DNA of 64,000 bases from Escherichia phage LH01: sequence record PP434429; one strand, written 5' to 3'. A program made the translations under genes and the position numbers. The stretch's first letter is position 1. Every line of letters begins with the position of its first letter. Below are positions 21,743-27,278 of the stretch, piece by piece. The notes below the pieces were generated by a model. The model ran no database searches, had not been told where the DNA came from, and was given only the letters and a program-made list of their open reading frames with translations.

Positions 21743-23214
21743 GGTCCAAATACGTCTTCAAATGAATCCGCTTCTGTTTTATCAAAACGGAACCCTTTAA
21801 TAATTGGAAGGAAAATACCTACAGTGCCTTCACGTCCTTTAGAATGAACCCAACCATTACATTCGCAATCAGCAATACGTCCGATCAATTTACCTTCGCG
21901 AGCTTCGGTCATTAATCGTTCACGGTCTAAATCATGACGCTCATCTAAAGGAATAAGAACCTTTACACCATCAACTGTTTTATGAGTTGTATCTTTAAAC
22001 CCTGAACCACAATCGGTTGTAATACGACGACAACGTGATACGAGTTCGACACCACCTAATTTGTTAGGGTCTTTAGAGTGTTCATAGTATCCTACAACTT
22101 CCAAAGCGATATCAATAACTTCTTTAAATTTAATTAGGTTCTTAGAGCGTTTGTTTTCCCAGTATGAATCACGGTTTTTAAGGATAATACCTTCAAGACC
22201 TTGGTCAACATATTTTTTATAAACCACTTTAGCTTCATCAAGATTACGAACTAACTGGTTTTCGATAGGTTCAATTCGTTTAAAGCCTTCAGCCATATTT
22301 TCAAGAGCAGCAAAACGAACATCGTATTTCTGGCCTTTAATTTTGCCATCAGAATAGACTTCATCTAAAGGAACATAGTCCCAGGCTTGAAGAACCATAC
22401 CTTCAGCTTCTTTAGGAGAAATAGTCCCTTGAAGAGATTTATTTGCTAAACCGTTTGAAGTGCTACGGTCTGCAACTTGTACTTCTTCGGATTCTTCATT
22501 ATCGCCAAATAAGAACGACAGGTCATTTCCTGAGCTCACGGCCTTTTTAATATCAAATGAATGATAAACTAATTCACCGTCGATTAAAACCCCATTAGGG
22601 TGTCTTTCACGGGCTTCTTTAGTCATTTCCATTAGTTCATCTGCTAATAGGGTAAGACCATGGTATTCGTTACCAGCACGAGAAAAGAATTGAACGCCAT
22701 CATCGCGAACTTCAGCGAAACAACGAGCACCATCTGCCTTTAATTGAGCAAATGCAGGCCATTTAATATTTTTAGTAATCAATTTCTCATCATATGCAGA
22801 TGCTAACATCTGTGGCTGCAATTGAATAAGTCCAGGCCACACCTTATTCGCGATAGACACTGAAGCACCTACTTCAAGGTCTCGCATCATTACACGACGA
22901 AGGACTTCTACATCATCAGGTTTACCGTCAGCGATATAACCCATGAGCTCTTTAATTGCAGCATTACCAGTGAGTTTACGAGTGGCTAATGTGAACTCAA
23001 TAAAATCCAACATGTCATCTAATTCAAGAAGGCCATACGCTTGAGACCTTTCACCTGGACCTGGCCATTTCTTAATATAATACTGGATGCCACGCGCATA
23101 CGTTAAACGATATACACGTTCAAGTAATTTGTTGTCCTTATTTTTCTTAAGGATTTCTTGTTTTGTTTTAGTAGAACCGATCGCAGCTATTTGGTTTAAA
23201 ATATCTAAAATCAT
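21721..23214 (-). CDS. 30: ATP-dependent DNA ligase gp30
   Basis: 497 aa; adenylation motif KADGAR; matches T4 DNA ligase N-terminus (MIL.ILN.IA.IGSTK.KQ). Confidence 0.95.
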   Translation of the reverse strand: MILDILNQIAAIGSTKTKQEILKKNKDNKLLERVYRLTYARGIQYYIKKWPGPGERSQAYGLLELDDMLDFIEFTLATRKLTGNAAIKELMGYIADGKPDDVEVLRRVMMRDLEVGASVSIANKVWPGLIQLQPQMLASAYDEKLITKNIKWPAFAQLKADGARCFAEVRDDGVQFFSRAGNEYHGLTLLADELMEMTKEARERHPNGVLIDGELVYHSFDIKKAVSSGNDLSFLFGDNEESEEVQVADRSTSNGLANKSLQGTISPKEAEGMVLQAWDYVPLDEVYSDGKIKGQKYDVRFAALENMAEGFKRIEPIENQLVRNLDEAKVVYKKYVDQGLEGIILKNRDSYWENKRSKNLIKFKEVIDIALEVVGYYEHSKDPNKLGGVELVSRCRRITTDCGSGFKDTTHKTVDGVKVLIPLDERHDLDRERLMTEAREGKLIGRIADCECNGWVHSKGREGTVGIFLPIIKGFRFDKTEADSFEDVFGPWSQTGL

Positions 23215-23480
23215 TTGATGTCCTCGATTTTGGTTACGGTTCTATTATAAGCCACTTCGTCTAGAAGCGATTTCAGCGTTTTCTGATAAGTGGTAATCCA
23301 TTTACCAAGTCCTTCAACATAGTATTCTGAAATGTAGATGAACCCTTGTTCAACACACTCTTTAAATATTTCTGCGTCTTTTACTGAACGAAACACCGGC
23401 CAGTCTCGAAAGAACATGTTAACATGACCGTAGTCACGTGTGGTGTTTTTGCCATCTGTAATATCATGAACTACAAACAT
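23211..23480 (-). CDS. hypothetical protein (89 aa)
   Basis: ORF coupled to gene 30 start. Confidence 0.5.
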   Translation of the reverse strand: MFVVHDITDGKNTTRDYGHVNMFFRDWPVFRSVKDAEIFKECVEQGFIYISEYYVEGLGKWITTYQKTLKSLLDEVAYNRTVTKIEDIK

Positions 23481-23489
23481 AATTAACCC

Positions 23490-24314
23490 TTAACAATTTA
23501 TAGACCAAGTCCATTTAGACGAATCTAAAGGAAAGTTTTGAATCGTCCACCATGGCTGCATATCGGTTGGTCCTGGGGTTCGCCAGGTATATGGAGTACG
23601 TGTTGTCGAGGGGCCGCCAATTTGATTAGGCCATGCACCTGGACTTGTTGCACCAGATTCTTTAAGCAAATCAGCCAATCGTTTTAAAAGGTCTTCACGA
23701 TCTGAATCTGAATTATTCTTAGGCAGAACCAAACGAGATTCAATATCATCCCATGTGTGTACACGTTGTGCAGTGCGAGGAATGGCATCACGTTCACCAC
23801 GAGCCAACCAATAAATTGGTACATTAAGAATTTCTGCCGCATGGTCACAGTGATGAGCTAAATCATCAACATAACAAATCACGTTATATTTTGTTTTGGC
23901 TAGTTCGAATAATTGTTCTTTTGAAGAATCATGACCACACATCATTACTTCAGAGAAAGCGCCTGGGAACAAAGCATTCAAATTAAATTGTCTATTCAAT
24001 CGAGCATCAATTGAATCACCTAGCGCCGTCACGGCTACAAAATTATAGTCTTCTTTTAGTTTATTGATAACTCGAAGAGCATCCGAATAAGGCGCTAAGT
24101 AACGAATAAAATCAGAGCGATTATATTTTTCTATTAATTGTTTACCAAGGTTATCGTCAGTATTGAACAGTTTACCAGGAGAAATAAATTTTTCGTCCTG
24201 AATCATTTTTAAAATATGTTCTAATGGAAGATTATATTTTTGGGCAAAATAAGGAAGTCCAGATTGCCAACTTAAACATACACCATCAATATCAGTCAAA
24301 ATAGTAGGCTTCAT
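23490..24314 (-). CDS. HAD-like hydrolase / putative nucleotidase
   Basis: 274 aa; N-terminal HAD motif I ILTDIDGVCL; unusual Trp/Pro-rich C-terminal 55 aa. Confidence 0.55.
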   Translation of the reverse strand: MKPTILTDIDGVCLSWQSGLPYFAQKYNLPLEHILKMIQDEKFISPGKLFNTDDNLGKQLIEKYNRSDFIRYLAPYSDALRVINKLKEDYNFVAVTALGDSIDARLNRQFNLNALFPGAFSEVMMCGHDSSKEQLFELAKTKYNVICYVDDLAHHCDHAAEILNVPIYWLARGERDAIPRTAQRVHTWDDIESRLVLPKNNSDSDREDLLKRLADLLKESGATSPGAWPNQIGGPSTTRTPYTWRTPGPTDMQPWWTIQNFPLDSSKWTWSINC

Positions 24315-24778
24315 AAAGAGTCTCTTAATAGGTTTAACACATCAACAAATTCAGTTTCGGTTAGTATTGTATCATCTTTTGTTAGGTGGCTAGCCATGCT
24401 GTGCTTCAAAATTTTTCCTTTAGAGGCTTGTAAGGCATCACGAAACCCCTTATTTTGGATCGCGGCTTCAAAATATGCATTTGTGTATAATTCTTTCCAT
24501 GCTTCAGAGTATCTTGAAAATGGAACTCCTAACCAGAAGAGAGTCCCACGGTCCTGAGCTCTTGCATAAGACCTTCCAGCTTGCTGTGCAGCCAATCCAG
24601 ACAACCCAAATATACGTCTTTGCTGTTCAACATTTTTCACCTTACATCCTTGGAGAAATCCTTCAAGACCTCCGAATTGAATACCATCCATAACAAAAGG
24701 CCATTGAGCAAAGTTACTTAATGCACATGACGGCCACTTGAAATTACTTCTTATTTCTAATTCAGACATCTTTAACAC
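24311..24778 (-). CDS. NADAR/YbiA-like (DUF1768) domain protein
   Basis: 155 aa; core LSNFAQWPFVMDGIQF parallels E. coli YbiA FSNFAAWPIKVDGKTW. Confidence 0.65.
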   Translation of the reverse strand: MLKMSELEIRSNFKWPSCALSNFAQWPFVMDGIQFGGLEGFLQGCKVKNVEQQRRIFGLSGLAAQQAGRSYARAQDRGTLFWLGVPFSRYSEAWKELYTNAYFEAAIQNKGFRDALQASKGKILKHSMASHLTKDDTILTETEFVDVLNLLRDSL

Positions 24779-24974
24779 TTATAATTTCAACATCAGCCCA
24801 ATGACCGTAACTAGGCAGACGGTCTTCAATAGATAAACCACCGTCATTTTTAAGCATTTTAATTGTCTTGATAAACGGTTCATCCTGTGGATGAATAGGC
24901 GAGCAGTCAGTCACACGATAAGTAACTTCAACCATTTCCGTGCCTAACAATTTCTGGATTAATTTATTCAACAT
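24762..24974 (-). CDS. hypothetical protein (70 aa)
   Basis: ORF in early-gene cluster; overlapping start/stop with neighbours. Confidence 0.45.
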   Translation of the reverse strand: MLNKLIQKLLGTEMVEVTYRVTDCSPIHPQDEPFIKTIKMLKNDGGLSIEDRLPSYGHWADVEIISVKDV

Positions 24975-25161
24975 GTTTCAACCCTTTAATAGGAGATAAC
25001 TCTTTACCCATACGTATGTCAGAAGTCCAATCAACCCATTGAACAGCATACGCTTCATTGATAATTCCAGCGGCGGTTTTAAATTCAGGGAGAACTTTAA
25101 AAATCACCCCAGGAATTCCAACACCTTTTAATTGGACTGTTTGTGCTATTAAAAATTTCAT
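24964..25161 (-). CDS. hypothetical protein (65 aa)
   Basis: ORF in early-gene cluster. Confidence 0.45.
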   Translation of the reverse strand: MKFLIAQTVQLKGVGIPGVIFKVLPEFKTAAGIINEAYAVQWVDWTSDIRMGKELSPIKGLKHVE

Positions 25162-25215
25162 ATTTTTCCACTTACTAAAGAAATCATTATACTCTAATCC
25201 GTCCTTGGATGTAAA

Positions 25216-25830
25216 CTACTTAACGAAATTAATTTCTACCGGATGAACAACAGGTTGAGCAGTGATATATTGAGTAATTGCTTTCATGACTAGAGCTTCA
25301 GAACCAGGATTTTTCTCAACGAATTCACGTGCTTGGTTATGAGCTTCAAGTTCACTTAGTAAACCACTTCGTTGGCATCCACGGTCTTGAGTACCCTGTT
25401 CAGATAAAAAGACGACGATGTATTTTTCATCGTCATAAGGTTTAGACGGTTGAGCAAATGTTCCTTTACTTCCAAAAGGAGAGTTATGACGCCACATCAC
25501 GCCGTGAGGAGTTTCAACCTTCGTATATTCGTGCGGTCCATTTTTCTTAATTTCTTGATGTGGAACTTCATAGACCTTAGGGTTAGGACATTCAATAAAA
25601 TGCTCATCTAAATCAGTCGAGAATATTAAAGTAAAACAATTACTGAATTTACCGACACCTGCCTGATAAATTTTACCTTCAGAAGTTCTAATTTCACAAA
25701 CTGAGCCGGCATCAGTAACTTCTAAAACTTCAAAAGGCTCGATAAGGTCATATGAGAACATGTTTTTAAGGCGTGGAGTAATATCCCCATTTTTAAAATT
25801 CATTTTATAAAAAGTATTAACTTTAAACAT
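25216..25830 (-). CDS. hypothetical protein (204 aa from ATG at 25830)
   Basis: GAGGAAATT RBS before MFKVNTFYK...; track ORF start at 25860 would read through an upstream hairpin. Confidence 0.55.
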   Translation of the reverse strand: MFKVNTFYKMNFKNGDITPRLKNMFSYDLIEPFEVLEVTDAGSVCEIRTSEGKIYQAGVGKFSNCFTLIFSTDLDEHFIECPNPKVYEVPHQEIKKNGPHEYTKVETPHGVMWRHNSPFGSKGTFAQPSKPYDDEKYIVVFLSEQGTQDRGCQRSGLLSELEAHNQAREFVEKNPGSEALVMKAITQYITAQPVVHPVEINFVK

Positions 25831-25865
25831 AATTTCCTCAGTGGGAGCTTCGGCTCCCAATTAAT

Positions 25866-26231
25866 TTAGATATCAAATTCGTTAAGAACTACATCAAAGA
25901 TTGCTTCGAGATGTTCAGGTTTAGCTCGGTTACTCAGGATATGACGAATCCAAGTTTTAACCAGAAGTTTACGATTAACACCATTCCAGCAAGGATGAGT
26001 ACCTAAATCACGCTGACGGAAATCATCATCTAATGCAATTTTAAAATTTGAACCTTCCATCGTGATTGAAACCGTGATACCATTTTCAAATCGCATATAA
26101 ACGTAATTAGGAGTCATGCACTGTTCGATTTCACAAACTGTACCGTTTTCGTGTTTCCATAAGCAAATAACTTCAGAAGAACCAGCGATACCGTTAGAAA
26201 CATATTTGCGTTCGAAGTTGGTGTAGTTCAT
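25866..26231 (-). CDS. hypothetical protein (121 aa)
   Basis: ORF with GGAGAAT RBS and own GTTTAC-N17-TATTAT promoter. Confidence 0.5.
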   Translation of the reverse strand: MNYTNFERKYVSNGIAGSSEVICLWKHENGTVCEIEQCMTPNYVYMRFENGITVSITMEGSNFKIALDDDFRQRDLGTHPCWNGVNRKLLVKTWIRHILSNRAKPEHLEAIFDVVLNEFDI

Positions 26232-26272
26232 TTTATTCTCCGGATGTTTAAGTTGTTTGTTGGTACAGGTCT

Positions 26273-26301
26273 ATAATAACATAACCTGTACCAAAGTAAA
26301 C
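26273..26301 (-). promoter_or_regulatory. early promoter GTTTAC-N17-TATTAT with inverted repeat
   Basis: Arms TGGTACAGG 26261-26269 and CCTGTACCA 26285-26293 (9/9) flank the -10. Confidence 0.5.
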
Positions 26302-26305
26302 TGTT

Positions 26306-26674
26306 TTATGCAACTTTAATCCAATTGTCTAAATTTAAAACACCTTTGGCTTTCATTTTTTCGATCAGGTTATCTGCTGTAATGCGTCCATTTTGATACC
26401 ATGTAACATCTTCAGAGTAACCAGTTTCTTCGTCAACATATGTTTCTGAACGAATTTTACCGGTAATAATAGTTTTTAATTCGTATGTGTCACCTGTGAA
26501 AAAGTTTGCTAACACAATTTTCCAAGAGAAATCATCAGAAGGACCTTCAGGGGTCATACAACCTACGAACTCAAATTGCTCTTTGTATAACATCCACTGG
26601 AATTCTTTAATTTCGATAGCTTTATAACCATCGTGGTCTTTACATTTGATGTATGAGTTCAGATTGATTTTCAT
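26306..26674 (-). CDS. hypothetical protein (122 aa)
   Basis: ORF with GGAGAAC RBS and own GTTTAC-N17-TACTAT promoter. Confidence 0.5.
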   Translation of the reverse strand: MKINLNSYIKCKDHDGYKAIEIKEFQWMLYKEQFEFVGCMTPEGPSDDFSWKIVLANFFTGDTYELKTIITGKIRSETYVDEETGYSEDVTWYQNGRITADNLIEKMKAKGVLNLDNWIKVA

Positions 26675-26716
26675 TTTGTTCTCCAGGTTGTTTTATTGAT
26701 TAGATGGTACAAGTCT

Positions 26717-26745
26717 ATAGTAACACATCCTACAGGAGAGTAAAC
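26717..26745 (-). promoter_or_regulatory. early promoter GTTTAC-N17-TACTAT
   Basis: Homologous to the 26273 promoter but complementarity of arms is lost. Confidence 0.5.
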
Positions 26746-26770
26746 ATCTTTTTAAACTTTTTCTGCCCTA

Positions 26771-26799
26771 AACGCACAAAAGGGAGACCGAAGTCTCCC
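26771..26799 (-). terminator. terminator after small basic ORF 26805..26984
   Basis: GGGAGAC-UUCG-GUCUCCC hairpin followed on minus strand by UUUUGUGCGUUU. Confidence 0.65.
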
Positions 26800-26804
26800 T
26801 AAAA

Positions 26805-26984
26805 TTATGCAACAACCTTTCCAAAACGAGAAGCATCATCTCGAAGAACTGCACGTGCTCTGCGCATGATCTTCTCAACTGTTTGATTAATACGAGAGTT
26901 CGACCCACGCTTGTATCCAGCGCGTTTAGAGGTACCATCAACTTTCTTTTCAACTGCTTTCTTTGCTTTAGCTTGTTTTGCCAT
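26805..26984 (-). CDS. small basic protein (59 aa; absent from ORF track)
   Basis: Hand-translated MAKQAKAKKAVEKKVDGTSKRAGYKRGSNSRINQTVEKIMRRARAVLRDDASRFGKVVA; followed by terminator; the 61-aa track ORF 26768..26953 is an alternative frame. Confidence 0.4.
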   Translation of the reverse strand: MAKQAKAKKAVEKKVDGTSKRAGYKRGSNSRINQTVEKIMRRARAVLRDDASRFGKVVA

Positions 26985-27278
26985 TATAAATTCTCTTTAA
27001 ATGAAAATGCAGGACTTATTGACATTGCCTGCGCAAGCCCTCAAGGGGAACATAGGTTTTGGATATTTAACGACAGGATAACCATAAACCCGTCATCATA
27101 CCAACCACGACTTAGACAGATAACCTTTTTCTGACGCGTGATAGTATAAAATACATTCAAGAGGTACACCGTAAAACTGCCGGGGTCTTAAAACTATAAT
27201 GATTCGCAAATCATTAATCAGACAGTTCGACGGCTCCTCGATTTTCTAGCCGCACTAAGGTAGCGAATCACCTAAAAC

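What the first reader, a model, noticed from the sequence alone, without database searches (positions are those of the whole stretch)
23211..26984. Cluster of about ten small early genes between DNA ligase and rIII, each with its own promoter
Eleven ORFs of 55-274 aa lie here, mostly without recognisable domains except the HAD-like and NADAR proteins. Several have their own GTTTAC promoter and short AUGAGGAAA-type leader, and the cluster ends in a terminator. This organisation is typical of phage host-takeover and anti-defence islands and is where related phages usually differ most.
Basis: inference. Interest (0 to 1): 0.45.

Follow-up and report, generated by a model that had tools for sequence, protein, structure and literature searches.

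The report
Known T4-type 30.1–30.9 early-gene cluster
This stretch is the well-known block of small early genes (30.1 to 30.9) that T4-like phages carry just upstream of their DNA ligase gene; it holds one proven anti-defence enzyme (AdfN) and is ordinary, apart from an undescribed folded RNA leader next to it.

Summary
The window is an RB69-like (Mosigvirus) T-even phage, 98% identical to phage ATK47. Interval 23211-26984 (minus strand) holds nine genes, not eleven. They are in the same order as T4 genes 30.9 to 30.1, between rIII and the DNA ligase gene.

Three genes (30.8, 30.7, 30.5) have their own GTTTAC early promoter. The leaders of 30.8 and 30.7 match the RegB nuclease target (GGAGAAYAAAA), not "AUGAGGAAA". 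The terminator follows the first gene transcribed (30.9), not the cluster's end.

The anti-defence reading is partly right. Gene 30.3 is AdfN, the published NADAR enzyme that defeats DarTG1, and it is intact here. T4 30.5 binds host Ppk and triggers bNACHT11. Gene 30.2 is a HAD phosphatase with all catalytic motifs.

"Where phages differ most" holds only for some slots. 30.3, 30.7 and 30.9 are 93-96% identical to T4, against 64% for ligase. Only the 30.6A slot is lineage-specific. The repeated promoter/leader cassettes mark exchange points: TuIa lacks 30.8, and RB69 lacks 30.5 and 30.6A.

The finding itself is already known. Just outside it, the rIII-30.9 spacer carries a covariation-supported pseudoknot leader with no Rfam match.

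The parts
26805..26984 (-). Gene 30.9: a 59-aa, lysine/arginine-rich protein of unknown function. It is the first gene of the cluster in the direction of transcription.
   Evidence: ORF. It is 96% identical to T4 gp30.9, falls in PHROG 1427, and is annotated 30.9 in relatives.
26778..26799 (-). Intrinsic terminator GGGAGAC-UUCG-GUCUCCC followed by UUUU. It closes the rIII/30.9 transcription unit.
   Evidence: Fold energy -19.4 kcal/mol, z = -4.55. The sequence is identical in RB69 and is annotated as a terminator in ATK47.
26717..26745 (-). T4-type early promoter P_E30.8 (GTTTAC-N17-TACTAT).
   Evidence: Pattern search. T4 has a GTTTAC promoter at the homologous place.
26674..26684 (-). RegB/S1 target site GGAGAACAAAA, overlapping the Shine-Dalgarno sequence and start of 30.8.
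   Evidence: Exact match to the consensus GGAGRAYARAA. The consensus comes from PMC1702504.
26306..26674 (-). Gene 30.8: 122 aa, Pfam Phage_30_8, function unknown, divergent (37% identity to T4).
   Evidence: It is absent from TuIa.
26273..26301 (-). T4-type early promoter P_E30.7 (GTTTAC-N17-TATTAT), embedded in the inverted repeat GGTACAGGT/ACCTGTACC.
   Evidence: It is conserved in T4 and RB69.
26231..26241 (-). RegB/S1 target site GGAGAATAAAA, overlapping the Shine-Dalgarno sequence and start of 30.7.
   Evidence: T4 30.7 mRNA is an experimentally shown RegB substrate (PMC9409239).
25866..26231 (-). Gene 30.7: 121 aa, Pfam Phage_T4_Gp30_7, 93% identical to T4, function unknown.
25843..25858 (-). 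Stem-loop GGGAGC-CGAA-GCUCCC between 30.7 and 30.6A, with no U-tract. It is followed directly by the 30.6A Shine-Dalgarno sequence GAGGAAA.
   Evidence: Fold z = -3.2. Annotated as a stem_loop in TuIa AJ621579.
25216..25830 (-). Gene 30.6A: 204 aa starting from the ATG at 25830. This is the lineage-specific slot. It is a two-domain protein with an N-terminal domain (residues 1-84) and a C-terminal domain (residues 90-195) carrying the motif GTQDRGCQRSGL. Function unknown.
   Evidence: It is present in 120 phage records and is named 30.6A in TuIa. It is absent from T4, RB69 and 7 other genera. An exhaustive HMMER search finds only 8 representatives.
25186..25216 (-). Early promoter P_E30.5 (GTTTAC-N19-TATAAT; 11 of 12 matches to the sigma-70 consensus). 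It drives 30.5-30.4-30.3-30.2-30.1-30.
   Evidence: It is found only in the 30.6A-carrying lineage; T4 and RB69 lack it.
24964..25161 (-). Gene 30.5: 65 aa, 64% identical to T4 30.5.
   Evidence: T4 30.5 binds Ppk and activates bNACHT11 (bioRxiv 10.1101/2024.12.17.629029). The gene is absent from RB69.
24762..24974 (-). Gene 30.4: 70 aa, function unknown. It overlaps the end of 30.5 and the start of 30.3.
24311..24769 (-). Gene 30.3 = adfN: 152 aa, a NADAR DNA ADP-ribosylglycohydrolase that counters DarTG1. It is full length and carries E36 and K43.
   Evidence: Pfam Phage_30_3, E = 5e-69. It is 95% identical to T4. Alignment shows the catalytic residues and the C-terminal helix that RB69 lacks. 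Function.
23490..24314 (-). Gene 30.2: 274 aa. A HAD-superfamily phosphatase domain (residues 1-195) followed by a disordered Trp/Pro-rich tail.
   Evidence: D8, D10 and K132 are invariant, and T96, D150 and D151 nearly so (at least 90%), in 46 homologues. AlphaFold2 pLDDT is above 90 over residues 1-195. Foldseek finds the HAD fold, and the best superpositions are with 5'(3')-deoxyribonucleotidases.
23211..23480 (-). Gene 30.1: 89 aa, DUF3045. Its stop codon overlaps the ligase start (ATGA).
26985..27094 (-). This part lies outside the given interval. It is the structured leader of 30.9, made of four elements:
- An H-type pseudoknot (27094-27051).
- Hairpin P3 (27048-27038) followed by CUUGCG.
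- Hairpin P4 (27032-27009).
- Hairpin P5 (27007-26991), which pairs UUUUC with the GAGAA Shine-Dalgarno sequence.
   Evidence: The stretch is 98-100% identical to T4. Pseudoknot covariation score is 0.527 against 0.175 in shuffles, with 0 of 500 shuffles reaching it. The P4 helix has five different sequences at the same position in different genera. There is no Rfam match.

Best explanation
The interval is the Mosigvirus (RB69-like) copy of the T-even "30.1-30.9" cluster, a block of small, dispensable early genes transcribed leftward towards DNA ligase.

Supported by sequence:
- Transcription can start at three T4-type early promoters, in front of 30.8, 30.7 and 30.5.
- 30.9 lies upstream of these promoters and is closed by a strong intrinsic terminator.
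- The Shine-Dalgarno regions of 30.8 and 30.7 are perfect RegB/S1 sites.
- 30.5-30.4-30.3-30.2-30.1-ligase form one tightly packed, partly overlapping unit.

Inferred from T4 biology:
- Host sigma-70 polymerase fires these promoters in the first minutes of infection.
- RegB then cuts the 30.8 and 30.7 leaders and shuts off their translation.

Products:
- 30.3 is AdfN, which removes DarT1-added ADP-ribose from guanines in phage DNA and so defeats DarTG1. This was shown for T4 and T2. It is inferred here from 95% identity, intact E36 and K43, and full length.
- 30.5 is the homologue of the T4 protein that binds host polyphosphate kinase and is sensed by bNACHT11. At 64% identity, this role is inferred weakly.
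- 30.2 is an active-looking HAD phosphatase, most like 5'(3')-deoxyribonucleotidases. Its substrate is inferred.
- 30.1, 30.4, 30.6A, 30.7, 30.8 and 30.9 remain without a function.

Evolution: the cluster changes by exchange of gene modules at its repeated promoter/leader cassettes. That leaves highly conserved modules (30.3, 30.7, 30.9) next to divergent or replaceable ones (30.4, 30.5, 30.6/30.6A, 30.8).
For: Synteny and identity:
- The region is 98% identical at the DNA level to ATK47, and 784 phage records match it.
- Relatives annotate these genes as 30.1-30.9.

Regulation:
- Promoters.
- RegB sites: with the consensus from PMC1702504. T4 30.7 is a known RegB substrate.
- Terminator and stem-loop: and the TuIa record features.

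Products:
- AdfN function: confirmed by HIDEN-SEQ. The allele here is intact.
- 30.5.
- 30.2 HAD motifs, model and fold.

Modular evolution:
- The P30.8 and P30.7 cassettes are about 75% identical and form the top direct repeat in the region.
- TuIa lacks exactly the gene between them.
- RB69 lacks 30.5 and 30.6A and carries the T4-type 30.6.
- Synonymous divergence from T4 is saturated for ligase, 30.1, 30.2, 30.4, 30.5 and 30.8. It is only 0.2-0.8 for 30.3, 30.7, 30.9, rIII and gene 31.
- The PeSL model is described in PMC2839356 and PMC4122927.
Against: - No transcript or phenotype data exist for this particular phage.
- Six of the nine products have no assigned function, so "host takeover / anti-defence" is demonstrated for one gene and suggested for one more.
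- PADLOC, NCBIfam and PDB sequence searches gave nothing.
- The 30.7 model has no informative structural neighbour.
- The generic sigma-70 and terminator scans are not enriched over shuffles in this interval. Only the T4-specific patterns are.
- Low dS in some modules could partly reflect constraint rather than recent exchange.
Confidence: 0.85

Rival explanations
1. The cluster is a window-specific, previously unseen anti-defence island, and its ORFs are mostly new.
For: Most ORFs fall in "unknown function" families. 30.6A is restricted to 120 records and has almost no relatives among 1.8 billion representative proteins.
Against: - Eight of the nine genes have T4 homologues in the same order.
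- The whole region is 97-98% identical to dozens of sequenced phages.
- 30.6A itself was deposited and named in 2004 in the TuIa record.
- There are no PADLOC hits.
Confidence: 0.03
2. The cluster is a housekeeping operon for nucleotide and DNA metabolism, co-expressed with ligase. It would have no host-specific role.
For: - 30.5 to 30.1 are co-transcribed and translationally packed with ligase.
- 30.2 is a HAD phosphatase resembling deoxyribonucleotidases and is the most widely conserved member.
- 30.3, 30.7 and 30.9 are under strong purifying selection, with dN/dS of 0.05-0.24.
Against: - adfN is dispensable on K-12 and needed only when DarTG1 is present.
- Deleting T4 30.5 is tolerated and changes only bNACHT11 sensitivity.
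- Whole genes are missing in viable relatives: TuIa lacks 30.8, RB69 lacks 30.5, and Krischvirus keeps only two ORFs here.
Confidence: 0.1
3. Several of the small ORFs (30.4, 30.5, 30.9, about 60-70 aa) are not genes. They would be chance ORFs in an AT-rich spacer.
For: They are short, have no Pfam domain, and many nested ORFs of similar size exist on both strands.
Against: - Each has a PHROG family with E-values of 1e-28 to 1e-34.
- Homologues sit in the same position in other genera.
- dN/dS is below 0.31.
- T4 30.5 protein has been expressed and pulled down with Ppk.
Confidence: 0.03

Closest known systems
Phage T4 genes 30.9-30.1 (NC_000866, 127205-130540), the early cluster preceding DNA ligase gene 30
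   Same: - Same flanks (rIII and gene 30), same strand and same order.
- Eight of the nine genes are homologous, at 37-96% amino-acid identity.
- The two early promoters and two RegB sites in front of 30.8 and 30.7 are the same.
   Different: - T4's 95-aa 30.6 is replaced here by the unrelated 204-aa 30.6A plus an extra early promoter in front of 30.5.
- The T4 nested ORF 30.3' (75 aa) is only 34 aa here.
- A 51-nt insertion/deletion lies in the rIII-30.9 spacer.
AdfN (T4 gp30.3), the anti-DarT factor NADAR
   Same: 95% identical, 152 aa, with E36 and K43 present and the C-terminal helix present.
   Different: Not tested in this phage. The type phage of the genus, RB69, carries a frameshifted, inactive allele. 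This window therefore resembles T4 in this respect, not RB69.
PeSL cassettes (promoter-early plus stem-loop) that mediate modular shuffling in T4-type genomes (Arbiol 2010; Comeau 2014)
   Same: - The terminator plus P_E30.8 form a composite.
- TTTACW-N17-TAYWAT-type promoters repeat at gene borders.
- Gene presence and absence (30.8, 30.5, 30.6/30.6A) is bounded by these cassettes.
   Different: - Only one of the three promoters has a stem-loop directly upstream.
- P_E30.7 is embedded in an inverted repeat instead.
- The stem-loop after 30.7 has no promoter next to it.
- The published papers held here do not discuss this locus.
RegB-controlled T4 early mRNAs (motA, 30.7)
   Same: An 11-nt GGAGAAYAAAA site sits over the Shine-Dalgarno sequence. 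T4 30.7 is a shown substrate.
   Different: Cleavage has not been shown in this phage. From my own knowledge of Truncaite 2006, it was reported for TuIa and RB69.
Autoregulatory leader pseudoknot of T4 gene 32 mRNA (a comparison for the 30.9 leader only)
   Same: An H-type pseudoknot in the 5' leader of a small nucleic-acid-binding-like protein gene in a T-even phage. This comparison rests on my own knowledge.
   Different: Different locus and sequence, and no Rfam match. No binding protein is known. The leader here also has an SD-sequestering hairpin and, in relatives, an added 135-nt RNA.

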